DNA of 15,939 bases from a virus. How positions within the stretch are numbered: position 1 is the first letter of the stretch; the number at the start of each line of letters is the position of its first letter. A program made the translations under genes and the position numbers. Location: positions 1 to 15,939 of the IMG/VR virus record IMGVR_UViG_3300037313_000747; one strand, written 5' to 3'. Shown in pieces: positions 1-15,917 of this stretch. Below the pieces are notes generated by a model. That model saw only the letters and a list, made by a program, of their open reading frames with translations. It was not told the DNA's origin and did no database searches.

Positions 1-65
1 GCAACGACCCCGACATCGCGCAGATGCTCCTGATCGGTGCCTACCAGAAACCGGCCGTGGGATGA
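1..65 (+). CDS. Head-to-tail adaptor (gp6-like connector), 3-prime end only; duplicate of 15470-15534
   Basis: Same frame and sequence as the end of CDS 15166-15534 (...IGAYQKPAVG stop at 63-65). The stop overlaps the next ATG (ATGA). Confidence 0.7.
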   Translation, partial: NDPDIAQMLLIGAYQKPAVG

Positions 66-448
66 CCACCGTGCAGCTCGACCCGGCCGACCTCGCCGCG
101 CTCCGAACCCTGATCGACGGAGCCGGGGACTTCACCGTCTCCTACGAACCCGCCGACCTCAAGGTGCTGCCCGGCGTCTGGATCAGGGTCGACGCGATCG
201 ACCTGCTGTCCACGCTCGCCGACGGACACACACGGGTTCCGGTGACCCTGCACCTGGTGACCCGCACGAAGCCGATCGAGAAGGCGCTCGGCGACCTGCT
301 GCCGATGCTCGACGCCGTCTGCTCGGTCCTCACCCCGGCCGGCGACGTCACGATCACCGGCGTAGTCCTGCCCGGCTCTCAGACCCCCATGCCCGCGCTG
401 GCCGTGCCGTACGAGCTGCGCACGATCCCCACGGAGGAAGCACCATGA
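62..448 (+). CDS. Head-tail joining / tail terminator-like neck protein (128 aa)
   Basis: ATGA overlap with the adaptor upstream and with the major tail gene downstream. Size and position between adaptor and tail tube fit the call. G/C-rich third codon positions. The function is positional, with no diagnostic motif. Confidence 0.45.
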   Translation: MTTVQLDPADLAALRTLIDGAGDFTVSYEPADLKVLPGVWIRVDAIDLLSTLADGHTRVPVTLHLVTRTKPIEKALGDLLPMLDAVCSVLTPAGDVTITGVVLPGSQTPMPALAVPYELRTIPTEEAP

Positions 449-6043: not shown

Positions 6044-6222
6044 CACTCCGGGACCATGTAGAACGGCTGCCGGTGAGGCTGGTCCTCATCGGCAGCCGCT
6101 TGCTTGTCCAGCGCCGGGTATGCGAGCACGACCAGGACCGCGCCGAGCTTGCAGAACGACCACGCCCAATCGAGCAGGAAGTCCCGCCGCGACCGCGCCG
6201 CCGGCACCGGCCCGAGCCTCAT
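5884..6222 (-). CDS. Questionable ORF translationally coupled to the int stop (112 aa; basic N-terminus plus one TM helix)
   Basis: ATG at 6222 overlaps the int stop (ATGA). The first ~40 codons (6099-6222) have nearly all G/C third positions in a stretch no other gene covers, and encode RSRRDFLLDWAWSFCKLGAVLVVLAYPAL. However, the ORF runs through the terminator hairpin and 160 nt antisense into the holin gene. Confidence 0.25.
   Translation of the reverse strand: MRLGPVPAARSRRDFLLDWAWSFCKLGAVLVVLAYPALDKQAAADEDQPHRQPFYMVPECQPPWSCPDPSGPLSPTFISTAIRPAMPDADSAPVQSVSIRPVPAAVSTPARV
6064..6098. terminator. Strong hairpin between the convergent lysis and integrase transcription units (candidate bidirectional intrinsic terminator)
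   Basis: 6064-6078 pairs with 6084-6098 (15 bp, one G-U on the plus-strand RNA, 5-nt loop CTGGT), followed by CTTGCTTGT on the plus strand. It lies 21 nt after the holin stop. Confidence 0.6.
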
Positions 6223-7127
6223 GCGACGAGGGTCGCCGCGCGCGCGGCCGAACGGATCGCATCGTCGGGCATCGCCACGTACCGCTGTGTCGTCTCCGGT
6301 CTGGAGTGGCCGAGCAGCGCGCCGACGGCGAGCAGATCGCGGGTCGCGGCATAGGCCACCGAGGCGCACCGATGCCGCAATGTGTGCGCCGTCCAGCCGT
6401 CCGGCAACGCGCGGGACAGCAGCCGCGAGACGTGGCCCGGTGTCAGGTGCGACCCGTGGCCGTTCGGGAACGCCCAGCCGTCGAGGAGCTGGAGCCGCGC
6501 GAGGAGCCGGCCGTCGACGACCGGCACCGCGCGCACCTTGCCGCCCTTGCCGTGCACGACCAGCTCGTCGCCGACCAGGTCGCGCGCGTGCACGCGGGCA
6601 ATCTCGGCGGCGCGGAGCCCGCCGAACGCGGCAAGCATGCCCATCAGCCCGATTCGCGGGTCCGGGTCCGCGAGGAGCTGGCGCACGACGTGCTCGGGTG
6701 CCGGTCGCGGCCGGCCGGCCGGCACCCGCACCGAGTCCAGCCGCGCCGATGGGTCGTCATCGATATGCCCGGCTCCGTGCGCCCAGCGGTAGAAGCTACG
6801 CACCGCCGAGCGCGCTGACTTGCGTGTCTCCGGTGCCCAGTGCTCGGCGGCGAGGAAGGCTTGCAGGTCAGCGGTCTGCACCGCGCACGGGTCCGGATGC
6901 AGGTCGCGCAGCCGGGCCAGATAGTGGCGGTGTAGCCGGATAGTGCCGGGCGAGCGTCCCGCCGCCCTCATCGCCTGGTCATAGAGCACCAGCATTGCCG
7001 CCCAAGCGAACGGCGCTGCGGCGAGTCCCGAGCTGATCGCTGCACGCATGGGCGCAGGGTACGCGCCAGTCTCGTATTTCGCACGAAAAGTCCGAATATC
7101 GACGACCGGCCGACCGCGGCTGCTCAC
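6219..7127 (-). CDS. int: Tyrosine integrase / XerC-D-like site-specific recombinase (302 aa from GTG 7127; alternative ATG at 7049)
   Basis: C-terminal catalytic block ...HTLRHRCASVAYAATRDLLAVGALLGHSRPETTQRYV (H-x-x-R ... H ... Y) and an upstream ...GGLRAAEIARV... Arg box. The GTGA overlap with the repressor stop argues for the 7127 start. The protein ends ...AARAATLVA. Confidence 0.9.
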   Translation of the reverse strand: MSSRGRPVVDIRTFRAKYETGAYPAPMRAAISSGLAAAPFAWAAMLVLYDQAMRAAGRSPGTIRLHRHYLARLRDLHPDPCAVQTADLQAFLAAEHWAPETRKSARSAVRSFYRWAHGAGHIDDDPSARLDSVRVPAGRPRPAPEHVVRQLLADPDPRIGLMGMLAAFGGLRAAEIARVHARDLVGDELVVHGKGGKVRAVPVVDGRLLARLQLLDGWAFPNGHGSHLTPGHVSRLLSRALPDGWTAHTLRHRCASVAYAATRDLLAVGALLGHSRPETTQRYVAMPDDAIRSAARAATLVA

Positions 7128-7459
7128 GCCGCCGGCCTGACCAGCGCGAACGGATAACCGGAGGGTTGTTGGTTCGAGTCCAACCGGGGGAGCGGAGCAC
7201 CGTCAGGTGCCGGACCATCGTCCGGCACCTGACCCGTCTCTAGCCACTCCAGCGGGACTCCTGTCCGCAGTGCCCACAGTCGCAGGGTTGACTTCCTCGG
7301 ATTGATCCGTCCCGACAACCACGTCGAGACGGCCTCCCGACGGACCCCGAGATATTCCGCCATGTCGCCGGCGCTCACACCGCTGATTCGCAGCGCGCGC
7401 CGCATCCGGTCGGGCATGTCGAACTCCAGCCGCGACCAGTCCATCGCTTGGTGACTCAT
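7124..7459 (-). CDS. XRE/Cro-CI-type helix-turn-helix repressor (111 aa), virion-form with C-terminal extension
   Basis: HTH segment VSAGDMAEYLGVRREAVSTWLSG. It is divergent from the early operon and sits directly upstream of, and overlapping, int. Residues 90-102 (LPRLDSNQQPSGY) are the antisense reading of the tRNA-like segment. The protein ends ...FALVRPAA. Confidence 0.8.
   Translation of the reverse strand: MSHQAMDWSRLEFDMPDRMRRALRISGVSAGDMAEYLGVRREAVSTWLSGRINPRKSTLRLWALRTGVPLEWLETGQVPDDGPAPDGAPLPRLDSNQQPSGYPFALVRPAA
7155..7192 (+). other. tRNA 3-prime-half mimic: putative attP common core
   Basis: Perfect T-arm GTTGG-TTCGAGT-CCAAC (7168-7184), then a 7-nt acceptor strand CGGGGGA and G (7185-7192). 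It is preceded by a 5-nt variable-loop-like and a 5-nt anticodon-stem-like segment. No matching 5-prime half (D-arm, 5-prime acceptor, paired anticodon stem) exists upstream, so it is a fragment and not a gene. Confidence 0.65.
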
Positions 7460-7469
7460 AGCCCGAGGG

Positions 7470-7484
7470 TCGCAAGAATCGCGA
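7470..7484. promoter_or_regulatory. Operator-like site O1: TCGCAAGAATCGCGA
   Basis: TCGC-N7-GCGA inverted repeat with an A-rich spacer, 11 nt upstream of the repressor ATG in the divergent intergenic region. It is one of three near-identical 15-mers. Confidence 0.55.
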
Positions 7485-7488
7485 AAAA

Positions 7489-7498
7489 AATCTAGCGT
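7489..7498. promoter_or_regulatory. Back-to-back candidate -10 hexamers: TAGCGT (plus, 7493-7498) and TAGATT (minus, 7494-7489)
   Basis: Both fit the actinobacterial TANNNT form and share a central CTAG. The plus-strand hexamer ends 6 nt before GTG 7505, so a leaderless start is possible. No experimental support. Confidence 0.3.
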
Positions 7499-7504
7499 TT
7501 CGGC

Positions 7505-7867
7505 GTGTCGCTACTTGCGCGTCTCGCAAAAATAGCGATCCTCGCCATTATGACGAACACAAACCCGCCTGAAACGGCCCTCCACCATGCCTACACCTGG
7601 CTAGACGTTTCCGCCTCCTACGGCCGCGAGCGCGCCCAGCTCCTCGCCGTCGACGGCAAGCCGAGCCGCAACGCGCAGATCGCCGAAGCGAACAACCAGC
7701 AGGCGCACGCGCTCAAGCTCGCCGAGATTCATGCGACCCTCGCCGTCGCCGAGGGGATCGGCAAGCTGGTTCAGCTCGCGGAGACGTGGGCGACCACTCC
7801 ATCCCGCGCGACGCTGCCGAGCTACGGCGGAGGCATCCTCCCGCCGCCGGCGGATGGGCGCTACTGA
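7505..7867 (+). CDS. First rightward early protein, hypothetical, helical (120 aa from GTG 7505; 105 aa if ATG 7550)
   Basis: Divergent from the repressor. Neither start has a clear SD. GTG 7505 sits at leaderless distance from a TANNNT hexamer. No HTH motif recognised, so it is not an obvious Cro. Confidence 0.55.
   Translation: MSLLARLAKIAILAIMTNTNPPETALHHAYTWLDVSASYGRERAQLLAVDGKPSRNAQIAEANNQQAHALKLAEIHATLAVAEGIGKLVQLAETWATTPSRATLPSYGGGILPPPADGRY
7524..7538. promoter_or_regulatory. Operator-like site O2: TCGCAAAAATAGCGA
   Basis: Same TCGC-N7-GCGA architecture and orientation as O1, 54 bp away, just inside or upstream of the first rightward ORF. A degenerate related element TCGCTACTTGCGC lies at 7508-7520. 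Confidence 0.55.
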
Positions 7868-8100
7868 TGCCCGCCGAGGTCCGCCCGCCGGTCGACGTCG
7901 GCAGGGTCGCGCTGTGCTCGTCGAATCCGGCTTTGTTCGACTCCCTCGACTACGGCGACCACATGAGCGCCCGCGAGTGGTGCGAAGTGTGTTTCTCGCG
8001 GTCGAGCTGCCGGCTGTACGCGCTCGGCAACCCGGACGCGACCGGCACCTATGGCGGCGACCTGTTCCGCGCCGGCGTGACCGTCATGGCGGTGCGCTGA
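7867..8100 (+). CDS. WhiB-like Fe-S transcription factor (77 aa)
   Basis: Start is ATG 7867 (TGATG overlap), in frame with track ORF 7786-8100. Cys pattern is C-x21-C-x2-C-x5-C (ALC...WCEVCFSRSSC), followed by a GTYGG turn equivalent to the G[VI]WGG motif. Confidence 0.75.
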   Translation: MPAEVRPPVDVGRVALCSSNPALFDSLDYGDHMSAREWCEVCFSRSSCRLYALGNPDATGTYGGDLFRAGVTVMAVR

Positions 8101-12219: not shown

Positions 12220-12410
12220 TGTTCCGGTTTGACCGCACACAACGCTCCGTCGTTGTCATCTGCACCCGGTGCGGCGCGCGGGACGTGTTCACCGATCCCG
12301 CGCCCGCGGAGACGTGGGCAGCGCTGCACCTGCGCGACGCGCACCCCGCGCCGACACCGGAGCGCAAGGCCGCGCTGACCGCCGGCAGGGTCCGCGACCA
12401 CCGTCGCTAA
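12219..12410 (+). CDS. Small hypothetical protein (63 aa) between terminase and portal
   Basis: ATG 12219 overlaps the terL stop (TGATG), with GGAGG at 12207-12211. Contains CTRCG. In frame with the tail of track ORF 11673-12410. Confidence 0.45.
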   Translation: MFRFDRTQRSVVVICTRCGARDVFTDPAPAETWAALHLRDAHPAPTPERKAALTAGRVRDHRR

Positions 12411-12418
12411 AATCGCGA
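12404..12418. promoter_or_regulatory. Distal copy of the operator-like motif, O3: TCGCTAAAATCGCGA
   Basis: Same 15-bp TCGC-N7-GCGA architecture, A-rich spacer and orientation as O1 and O2. It spans the stop codon of the 63-aa ORF at the start of the only sizeable gap (58 nt) inside the structural operon, upstream of portal. Confidence 0.5.
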
Positions 12419-15166: not shown

Positions 15167-15534
15167 TGCCTCTCCCCGCCACCGGCCCGGCCTCCAGGAG
15201 CGCTGTCAAGGCGCTCCTGGGGGTCGCGGACGCAGACGTTTCTCAGGACGAGCTGGTCGACCGCTACGTCGCGGTCGCGAACAACATCGTCACTGAGCTG
15301 CCGATCGCGCAGCGTGCCAACACCGACCCGGCCCCGGCCGACTGGTCGGCTCCGGAGTTCGCGCGCATCGTCGAGGGCGCGAACATGCTCGGCGCACGCC
15401 TCTACGTCCGCAAGGACTCAGCCGAAGGCGTCGCCGCGACGGCGGTCGCCGCGGCCGTCTACGTCCAGCGCAACGACCCCGACATCGCGCAGATGCTCCT
15501 GATCGGTGCCTACCAGAAACCGGCCGTGGGATGA
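15166..15534 (+). CDS. Head-to-tail adaptor (gp6-like head-tail connector), 122 aa
   Basis: ATG 15166 overlaps the capsid stop (TGATG), in frame with the tail of track ORF 14443-15534. Position immediately after the capsid gene. LLGV...DELVDRYVAVANNIV... resembles gp6-like connector N-termini. Confidence 0.6.
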   Translation: MPLPATGPASRSAVKALLGVADADVSQDELVDRYVAVANNIVTELPIAQRANTDPAPADWSAPEFARIVEGANMLGARLYVRKDSAEGVAATAVAAAVYVQRNDPDIAQMLLIGAYQKPAVG

Positions 15535-15917
15535 CCACCGTGCAGCTCGACCCGGCCGACCTCGCCGCGCTCCGAACCCTGATCGACGGAGCCGGGGACT
15601 TCACCGTCTCCTACGAACCCGCCGACCTCAAGGTGCTGCCCGGCGTCTGGATCAGGGTCGACGCGATCGACCTGCTGTCCACGCTCGCCGACGGACACAC
15701 ACGGGTTCCGGTGACCCTGCACCTGGTGACCCGCACGAAGCCGATCGAGAAGGCGCTCGGCGACCTGCTGCCGATGCTCGACGCCGTCTGCTCGGTCCTC
15801 ACCCCGGCCGGCGACGTCACGATCACCGGCGTAGTCCTGCCCGGCTCTCAGACCCCCATGCCCGCGCTGGCCGTGCCGTACGAGCTGCGCACGATCCCCA
15901 CGGAGGAAGCACCATGA
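15531..15917 (+). CDS. Second copy (wrap-around) of the neck/tail terminator-like gene 62-448
   Basis: Identical 128-aa translation. It lies within the terminal repeat. Confidence 0.45.
   Translation: MTTVQLDPADLAALRTLIDGAGDFTVSYEPADLKVLPGVWIRVDAIDLLSTLADGHTRVPVTLHLVTRTKPIEKALGDLLPMLDAVCSVLTPAGDVTITGVVLPGSQTPMPALAVPYELRTIPTEEAP

What the first reader, a model, noticed from the sequence alone, without database searches (positions are those of the whole stretch)
7155..7192. tRNA 3-prime-half fragment embedded antisense in a protein-coding gene
A textbook T-arm (GTTGG/TTCGAGT/CCAAC) plus the acceptor 3-prime strand CGGGGGA and a G discriminator are present, but the 5-prime half of a tRNA is absent. 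This is the usual footprint of a phage attP core that regenerates the tRNA 3-prime end after insertion. The inferred acceptor stem (5-prime UCCCCCG with a U1:A72 pair) and G73 discriminator are reminiscent of tRNA-Asn. That identity is a guess from memory. The same bases are read on the other strand as LPRLDSNQQPSGY, so the sequence is under dual constraint.
Basis: seen in the sequence. Interest (0 to 1): 0.6.

Follow-up and report, generated by a model that had tools for sequence, protein, structure and literature searches.

The report
Phage attachment site inside its repressor gene
The tRNA-like 38 bases are the site where a small soil phage inserts into its host's asparagine tRNA gene, and because the site lies inside the phage's own repressor gene, insertion should cut a degradation tag off the repressor and lock in dormancy; this switch type is already known, so this is a new example rather than a new mechanism.

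Summary
Window 7155-7192 (plus C at 7193) is identical, base for base, to positions 36-73 of tRNA-Asn(GTT) genes of Nocardioides and other Nocardioidaceae. No whole tRNA is present.

There is also a second layer. The core lies in codons 89-102 of a CI-type immunity repressor (7459-7124, minus strand), directly upstream of a small tyrosine integrase. A divergent early operon and operator-like repeats sit on the other side. This is the integration-dependent immunity cassette described for mycobacteriophage BPs, Gordonia cluster CW phages and the corynephage CyranoPS.

In silico integration into five Nocardioides tRNA-Asn genes shortens the repressor from 111 to 101 residues. The new stop (TAA) is the complement of tRNA nucleotides 35-37, where the phage has TAT (Tyr). 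The lost tail, YPFALVRPAA, resembles the host tmRNA tag (...FALAA).

A related 17-kb Microbacterium prophage shows exactly this truncated form at tRNA-Asn. Of 79 database homologues, 63 carry the same tRNA-derived peptide. Nine of those stop at the anticodon, and 50 of the 54 with tails end in AA, VA, AS or VS.

Verdict: a new member of a known kind. None of the function has been tested experimentally.

The parts
7155..7193 (+). attP common core: identical to tRNA-Asn(GTT) positions 36-73 plus the next base (39 bp)
   Evidence: Exact 38-nt identity in 38 of 120 genome loci, and +1 nt in nearly all. Depth in soil metagenome contigs jumps about 200-fold exactly between 7155 and 7193, and the loose ends before 7155 read as tRNA-Asn 5' halves.
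7124..7459 (-). Immunity repressor, viral form of 111 aa (106 aa if translation starts at ATG 7444). The HTH domain is followed by a Pro/Asp/Gly linker, the tRNA-antisense peptide LPRLDSNQQPSG and the tail YPFALVRPAA.
   Evidence: Pfam HTH_3 and Phage_CI_repr; phrog_2328 'transcriptional repressor' at 3.7e-25. It is 36-40% identical to annotated immunity repressors of cluster P mycobacteriophages and to repressors of small Gordonia phages.
7127..7156 (-). Codons 102-111 (YPFALVRPAA): an ssrA-like C-terminal tail that integration would remove. Codon 102 is TAT (7156-7154), where the host tRNA gives TAA.
   Evidence: In silico attL with five Nocardioides tRNA-Asn loci gives a 101-aa product ending ...QQPSG. 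Host tmRNA tags are ANAKRTDFALAA and ANAKRSSFALAA. 50 of 54 homologous tails end in [AV][AS], against 3% expected from tail composition.
7202..7233 (.). Perfect 14-bp-arm palindrome with a 4-nt loop, lying 9 nt 3' of the tRNA part and inside the repressor's linker codons. Proposed replacement terminator for the rebuilt tRNA-Asn.
   Evidence: dG -34 kcal/mol; z = -5.9 against shuffles. Native tRNA-Asn loci have a strong hairpin at the same relative place. So do eight related prophage flanks (Asn, Lys, Gly and Arg tRNAs) and the phages McGonagall and SallySpecial, each with a different sequence. The function is inferred.
6219..7127 (-). Tyrosine integrase, 302 aa as the maximal ORF, ending ...ATLVA. 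The start is uncertain: GTG 7127 (4-nt overlap with the repressor stop) or ATG 7049.
   Evidence: Pfam Phage_integrase plus SAM-like core-binding domain only; phrog_1. It is 45-48% identical to Gordonia CW phage integrases and 44-45% to cluster G (BPs-type) integrases. The conserved part begins at W42. GC3 of the first 44 codons is only 0.65.
7460..7549 (.). Control region between the repressor and the rightward early genes, with operator-like TCGC-N7-GCGA sites at 7470-7484, 7524-7538 and (2 mismatches) 7542-7556
   Evidence: 4 matches in the genome, 0.27 expected. No sigma-70 consensus promoter was found. The operator role is inferred.
7550..7867 (+). First rightward ORF (105 aa from ATG 7550, 120 aa from GTG 7505), in the position of cro but with no detectable HTH
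   Evidence: No Pfam or PHROG family. The Atlas model has low confidence and is helical, and no named family is near it.
12404..12418 (+). Fourth copy of the operator-like motif (1 mismatch), between the terminase and portal genes

Best explanation
The segment is the 39-bp common core of attP in a 15.5-kb temperate siphovirus-type actinophage from soil. The predicted host is Nocardioides or a close relative in Nocardioidaceae.

The core equals the 3' part of the host tRNA-Asn(GTT) gene from position 36 to the end. Recombination by the adjacent tyrosine integrase would therefore rebuild an intact tRNA at attL and leave a 3' fragment at attR.

[quoted passage not shown] The free phage therefore encodes a 111-residue repressor that ends in an ssrA-like tail (YPFALVRPAA). 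The prophage would encode a 101-residue form that stops at TAA, the complement of tRNA nucleotides 35-37. By analogy with BPs, the tagged viral form should be degraded and allow lytic growth. The truncated prophage form should be stable, bind the TCGC-N7-GCGA sites and maintain lysogeny. Integration also moves int to the far end of the prophage, away from the repressor gene and the control region; the integrase itself ends in ...TLVA.

A GC-rich hairpin just 3' of the core, encoded within the repressor linker, probably replaces the native terminator of the tRNA.

Shown here: the sequence identity, the gene arrangement, the homology, the in silico truncation, and truncated and tagged forms among relatives. 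Inferred: proteolysis, repression, operator identity and the terminator role.
For: - Core identity to tRNA-Asn and its exact limits.
- No complete tRNA in the window.
- Repressor and integrase families.
- Homology to annotated immunity repressors of cluster P mycobacteriophages, a cluster reported to use integration-dependent immunity (PMC4557955, PMC9635641), and to integrases of cluster G and Gordonia CW phages. Both clusters have described integration-dependent immunity (PMC3694055, PMC4557955, PMC5559632).
- In silico attL gives a 101-aa repressor in 5 of 5 Nocardioides loci.
- A natural example exists in Microbacterium sp. NPDC057741. A 17.2-kb prophage lies between a full tRNA-Asn and a tRNA fragment. 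Its repressor (40% identical) ends LPRLDSNQQPAD at the TAA complementary to tRNA nt 35-37, and a 35%-identical integrase ending ...KLAA sits at the other end.
- Of 79 homologues, 63 carry the tRNA-Asn antisense peptide. Nine stop 2 residues after QQP. Of the 54 with tails, 42 have Tyr at the stop position and 50 end in AA, VA, AS or VS.
- Host tmRNA tags end in FALAA.
- No HTH_17 excisionase appears in six frames, and the integrase has no arm-binding domain.
Against: - Nothing was tested experimentally.
- No integrated copy of this phage or of a close relative was found. An attL-junction 41-mer gave no hit in 185,579 species genomes, and the best repressor match in 401 Nocardioidaceae genomes is at most 40% identical.
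- The metagenome contigs break at the core, so they cannot show an integrated form.
- The first rightward ORF has no HTH, so a Cro equivalent is not identified.
- The tail has Pro-Ala-Ala rather than the canonical Leu-Ala-Ala, and it is only 10 residues against 33 in BPs.
- The integrase start is uncertain, and with it any translational coupling to the repressor.
Confidence: 0.85

Rival explanations
1. This is an ordinary tRNA-type attP whose overlap with the repressor ORF has no regulatory meaning. Integration changes the last ten residues, but both repressor forms behave alike, and immunity does not depend on integration.
For: The tail is short (10 aa) and ends PAA rather than LAA. No Cro-like HTH gene was found. 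Function was not tested.
Against: The arrangement is conserved across a large repressor family. The tails differ in length and sequence, yet 50 of 54 end in [AV][AS] against 3% expected. The repressor and integrase are homologous to those of phage clusters reported to use integration-dependent immunity (PMC4557955).
Confidence: 0.1
2. The segment is the decayed remnant of a tRNA-Asn gene once carried by the phage, or host DNA picked up by imprecise excision, and it has no role in recombination.
For: Many actinophages carry tRNA-Asn genes, and these give partial matches to the segment.
Against: The identity to host tRNA is perfect over 39 nt and ends abruptly at position 35/36 and at the tRNA 3' end, which is the pattern of an att core. 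It sits next to an integrase. A related prophage is flanked by exactly this repeat. Phage-borne tRNA-Asn genes match less well, at 85-97% over 30-40 nt.
Confidence: 0.02
3. The record is a mis-assembled or chimeric contig in which a host tRNA fragment was joined to phage DNA at a high-depth repeat.
For: Depth at 7155-7193 is about 200 times that of the flanks in soil metagenomes, and Logan contigs break there. Such places are prone to chimeras.
Against: The repressor reading frame runs through the segment, continues into a tail with GC3 of 0.9 and ends in a family-typical AA. The closest homologue (84% identical, another source) has the same layout. Contigs from two runs enter the core from either side with 0 differences.
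Confidence: 0.02

Closest known systems
Integration-dependent immunity of mycobacteriophages BPs, Brujita and Charlie (Broussard et al. 2013 Mol Cell 49:237; PMC3694055; PMC4557955)
   Same: attP lies inside the repressor ORF. rep and int are adjacent and co-oriented, with divergent early genes. The viral repressor is longer and carries an ssrA-like end. The integrase is small, has no arm-binding domain and has a tag-like end. No xis was found. The integrase is 44-45% identical to cluster G integrases, and the repressor is 36-40% identical to cluster P immunity repressors.
   Different: The genome is 15.5 kb rather than 41-50 kb. attB is tRNA-Asn. Only 10 residues are removed, against 33 in BPs. 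The intergenic region is about 45-90 bp, against about 200 bp. The first rightward gene has no recognisable HTH. The host is predicted to be Nocardioidaceae. Nothing has been tested.
Small-genome Gordonia cluster CW phages (GMA5, GRU3, McGonagall, Jeanie) and SallySpecial (PMC5559632)
   Same: They are 16-18 kb temperate phages with a protease-capsid fusion. They have an integration-dependent immunity cassette and an integrase 45-48% identical to this one. Their repressors end in a tRNA-antisense peptide followed by a short tail (...PADRLLSLVAA in McGonagall), with a hairpin 3' of the tRNA part.
   Different: They use a 37-bp core in tRNA-Lys and infect Gordonia. The structural genes are only 39-46% identical.
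Corynephage CyranoPS (bioRxiv 10.64898/2026.10.29.762952)
   Same: [quoted passage not shown] Integration removes the last 15 residues of the repressor and separates int from its promoter.
   Different: It uses tRNA-Lys, infects Corynebacterium and has 53% GC. It was demonstrated experimentally, whereas the present case is a prediction.
Classical tRNA-overlapping attP sites (for example mycobacteriophage L5; own knowledge)
   Same: The common core equals the 3' part of a tRNA gene, so the tRNA is regenerated after integration.
   Different: In those systems attP is intergenic, the integrase has arm-type binding and an Xis, and immunity does not depend on integration.

Membership tests
Integration-dependent immunity cassette (BPs/Brujita type) | [quoted passage not shown] | tested here: met
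   The 39-bp identity to tRNA-Asn at 7155-7193 falls in codons 89-102 of the HTH repressor ORF 7459-7124.
Integration-dependent immunity cassette (BPs/Brujita type) | rep and int adjacent and co-oriented, with a divergent rightward first gene (cro) across a short control region | tested here: inconclusive
   rep (7459-7124) and int (7127 or 7049 to 6219) are adjacent on the minus strand, and a divergent ORF starts at 7505 or 7550. That ORF has no HTH or known family, so its Cro identity is not shown.
Integration-dependent immunity cassette (BPs/Brujita type) | Integration yields a shorter repressor lacking a C-terminal ssrA-like degradation tag | tested here: met
   At sequence level only. In silico attL gives 101 aa against 111 aa, losing YPFALVRPAA. 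Host tmRNA tags end in FALAA. Homologues occur in truncated and tagged forms. Proteolysis itself cannot be tested here.
Integration-dependent immunity cassette (BPs/Brujita type) | Integrase carries a C-terminal degradation signal | tested here: inconclusive
   Int ends ...ATLVA. Related integrases end ...KLAA (Microbacterium prophage)...AAVA (McGonagall) and ...AWAA (SallySpecial). This is suggestive by sequence only.
Integration-dependent immunity cassette (BPs/Brujita type) | Simple integrase without an arm-binding domain, and no excisionase | tested here: met
   Pfam finds only the SAM-like core-binding and catalytic domains. A six-frame search for HTH_17 finds only the repressor's own HTH, below cut-off. 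Other excisionase families were not searched.
Integration-dependent immunity cassette (BPs/Brujita type) | Immunity and lysogeny depend on integration (genetic test) | not testable with these tools
   This needs a host and lysogens.
Functional tRNA gene | Complete cloverleaf with acceptor 5' strand, D-arm and anticodon arm | tested here: not met
   ARAGORN finds 0 genes and Rfam gives no match. Identity to tRNA-Asn stops at position 36.
tRNA-type attP/attB common core | Contiguous identity of some 20-45 bp with the 3' end of a host tRNA gene, reaching the discriminator, next to an integrase gene | tested here: met
   The window shares 38 nt (39 nt with C 7193 in nearly all loci) with Nocardioidaceae tRNA-Asn. 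The integrase starts 28-106 nt to the left. A related prophage is flanked by the same repeat.

The most novel reading that the evidence does not exclude
The 3' end of this repressor family may be a three-layer overlapping code that follows a general rule:
1. The Pro/Asp/Gly linker encodes the hairpin that terminates the rebuilt tRNA.
2. The next 12-13 codons are fixed by the antisense tRNA T-arm, acceptor and anticodon stem.
3. The prophage stop codon is supplied by the tRNA itself (TAA from nt 35-37 of Asn-GTT or Lys-CTT; TGA from nt 39-41 or 12-14 in others).

The phage must differ from the tRNA at exactly that codon (TAA to TAT, Tyr in 42 of 54 tails). This sets the left limit of the att core and may restrict which tRNAs, and which reading frames, such phages can adopt. 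I did not find this rule stated in the papers read here.
Probability: 0.5. Interest if true: 0.45.

Novelty: new member of a known kind. Interest (0 to 1): 0.3.

Why it matters
The attB identity gives an uncultured soil phage a firm host prediction (Nocardioidaceae). It extends integration-dependent immunity to a host family for which two full-text searches here turned up no report. The search also shows that a large, mostly uncultured repressor family uses tRNA-Asn in the same way: 63 of 79 homologues.

The compact 1.3-kb int-attP-rep unit with a 39-bp core could serve as an integration vector or a simple bistable switch for Nocardioides and its relatives. Mechanistically it adds no new principle.

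Tried and rejected
- An attL-junction 41-mer (tRNA 3' end plus phage flank) had no match in the species genomes.
- A repressor search in 401 Nocardioidaceae genomes found only distant homologues (at most 40% identical), several at tRNA-Lys, Gly or Arg. No prophage of this phage was found.
- A repressor search in five genomes that hold bare tRNA-Asn fragments (L003, L054, L048, L063, L005) found none. Other kinds of element use the same attB.
- Logan contigs from four soil or rhizosphere runs hold the phage but break at the core, so they show neither the free nor the integrated junction.
The DNA context of the database homologues, including the 84%-identical one, could therefore not be read.
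- Rfam gave no partial tRNA hit. The sigma-70 consensus scan found no promoter.
- The first rightward ORF could not be shown to be Cro.
- GC3 of the first 44 integrase codons suggested a later start, while comparison with Angel and McGonagall supports a long N-terminus. This is left open.
- The primary paper PMC3557535 is not held. Its content is cited through PMC3694055 and PMC4557955.

Full report
**What the window is.** The window is a whole IMG/VR virus record with terminal repeats. Bases 1-300 recur exactly 15,469 bases further on, so it is a wrapped circular or permuted genome of about 15.5 kb with 70% G+C. It encodes:
- a large terminase, a portal and a protease-capsid fusion
- an amidase endolysin and an r1t-type holin
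- a tyrosine integrase and a CI-type repressor
- a WhiB-like protein
- an EEP-family enzyme and a replication initiator

Its capsid protein is 39-46% identical to those of the 14-17 kb actinophages RRH1, EricDab, SallySpecial and McGonagall.

**The observation.** Positions 7155-7192 read T36-A37-A38, then the 3' anticodon-stem strand, variable loop, complete T-arm, 3' acceptor strand and G73 of a tRNA. ARAGORN calls no tRNA anywhere in the window, and Rfam gives nothing at 6900-7500.

A 25-mer from this segment occurs in more than 120 species genomes. In 38 of the 120 loci returned, the identity extends exactly 38 nt to 7155, and by one base to 7193. All of these are complete tRNA-Asn(GTT) genes. 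Every one of the 17 that carry a name at family level or below is Nocardioides, Marmoricola, Aeromicrobium, Nocardioidaceae or Propionibacteriales. The tRNAs of Microbacterium, Intrasporangiaceae and others match over only 25-34 nt.

The window differs from the tRNA at 7154 (A where the tRNA has T35) and is unrelated further left. In soil metagenome contigs, depth rises about 200-fold exactly between 7155 and 7193, and the loose ends to the left read as tRNA-Asn 5' halves. The only correction is that the natural 5' acceptor strand is UCCCCUG.

**What surrounds it.** The segment lies in codons 89-102 of ORF 7459-7124 on the minus strand. This ORF is an HTH_3/Phage_CI_repr protein and matches phrog_2328, 'transcriptional repressor', at 3.7e-25. 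It is 36-40% identical to the annotated immunity repressors of cluster P mycobacteriophages and related to those of GMA5 and SallySpecial.

Directly downstream on the same strand is a tyrosine integrase with only a SAM-like core-binding domain and a catalytic domain. It is 45-48% identical to integrases of Gordonia cluster CW phages and 44-45% to those of cluster G mycobacteriophages, the BPs group.

On the other side, 45-90 bp of spacer hold three TCGC-N7-GCGA sites. A fourth lies at 12404 (0.27 expected by chance). Rightward genes follow. No HTH_17 excisionase is found in six frames.

[quoted passage not shown] The same layout is described for small Gordonia phages with a 37-bp core in tRNA-Lys (PMC5559632) and for the 14.9-kb corynephage CyranoPS (bioRxiv 10.64898/2026.10.29.762952).

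**What integration would do.** I joined the left flank and core of five named Nocardioides tRNA-Asn loci to window 7194 onwards. Each time this gives a repressor of 101 residues ending ...LPRLDSNQQPSG, against 111 residues ending ...SGYPFALVRPAA in the free phage. The new stop, TAA, is the complement of tRNA nucleotides 35-37. The phage has TAT (Tyr102) because of the single difference at 7154. The tmRNA tags of two Nocardioides genomes are ANAKRTDFALAA and ANAKRSSFALAA, so the lost tail (..FAL...AA) is ssrA-like. The integrase ends ...ATLVA.

**Evidence from relatives.**
- **A natural prophage.** Microbacterium sp. NPDC057741 holds a 17.2-kb prophage between a complete tRNA-Asn and a bare 3' fragment. 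At the tRNA end lies a repressor 40% identical to ours. It is 102 residues long and ends LPRLDSNQQPAD at the TAA inside the anticodon loop. At the other end lies a 35%-identical integrase ending ...KLAA.
- **Database homologues.** Of 79 homologues in the 5.8-billion-protein set, 63 contain the tRNA-Asn antisense peptide. Nine end two residues after QQP, which is the prophage form. The other 54 continue for 4-42 residues; 42 of them have Tyr at the stop position and 50 end in AA, VA, AS or VS. Tail composition predicts 3%. The sequences are related, so the p-value overstates independence, but 52 tails are distinct.
- **IMG/VR relatives.** These show both forms.
- **Other tRNAs.** Family members read into tRNA-Lys, Gly or Arg and stop at TAA (nt 35-37) or TGA (nt 39-41 or 12-14) supplied by the tRNA.

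**An added feature.** A perfect 14-bp-arm palindrome lies nine bases 3' of the tRNA part (7202-7233; dG -34 kcal/mol, z -5.9), inside the repressor's linker codons. Native tRNA-Asn genes carry a strong hairpin at the same relative place. So do all eight related prophage flanks examined, and so do McGonagall and SallySpecial, each with a different sequence. In the BPs-like phage Angel it is not clear. I infer that the phage supplies a replacement terminator for the rebuilt tRNA. This is untested.

**Limits.**
- No integrated copy of this phage or of a near relative was found, and the contig data cannot show one.
- The first rightward ORF has no HTH.
- The integrase start is uncertain between GTG 7127 and ATG 7049. 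GTG 7127 overlaps the repressor stop, as annotated for Angel gp33/gp32. The first 44 codons have low GC3, and conservation begins at W42.

**Verdict.** The feature is the attP core of an integration-dependent immunity cassette: a new member of a known kind, with a predicted Nocardioidaceae host. The same scan noted the cassette, the operators and the wrapped genome on this window before.

Noticed in passing
window 7202-7233: A perfect 14-bp-arm palindrome lies inside the repressor linker codons, 9 nt 3' of the tRNA part. Equivalent hairpins of different sequence sit at the same place in eight related prophages, in McGonagall and SallySpecial, and after native tRNA-Asn genes. It is probably a replacement tRNA terminator.
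   Followed up: partly
window 7470-7484, 7524-7538, 7542-7556, 12404-12418: Operator-like TCGC-N7-GCGA motifs: three between the repressor and the early genes and one between terminase and portal (4 found, 0.27 expected).
   Followed up: partly
L128, L129, L130, L132, L137 (Nocardioidaceae genomes): Repressor homologues read antisense into tRNA-Gly, Lys or Arg and end at stops supplied by the tRNA: TAA from nt 35-37, or TGA from nt 39-41 or 12-14. The family has adopted several tRNAs with the same design.
   Followed up: partly
L022, L054, L048, L063, L003, L005, L075: Bare 3' fragments of tRNA-Asn (25-36 nt shared with the window) occur in other actinobacterial genomes, with no repressor homologue found in the five of those genomes that were searched. 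Other integrated elements use the same attB. L003 has a 48%-identical integrase piece at the edge of the locus.
   Followed up: partly
window 7786-8100: A WhiB-like ORF (Pfam Whib 5.7e-05, just over the cut-off) with a C-X22-C-X2-C-X5-C pattern lies in the early rightward operon.
   Followed up: no
window 1-300 and 15470-15769 (repeat runs to the end): An exact terminal repeat with 15,469-base spacing. The record is a wrapped genome of about 15.5 kb, and genes run across the join.
   Followed up: partly
L148 (Arthrobacter phage BlueFeather, 13785-14096): This is the closest named phage homologue of the repressor HTH part (61% identical over residues 11-76). Among the annotated genes within 2.5 kb on either side there is no integrase, so this 16-kb relative seems to have lost or never had the int-attP part.
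   Followed up: no
L142, L145, L146, L147 (IMG/VR relatives): In several viral-form relatives the repressor stop overlaps (ATGA) the start of a small ORF of 40-129 aa rather than the integrase. A similar extra gene between int and rep was reported for GMA5.
   Followed up: no
window 6700-7700 in runs X1-X4: The phage occurs with 0 differences in contigs of at least two soil metagenome studies, and in part in others (soil, rhizosphere).
   Followed up: partly
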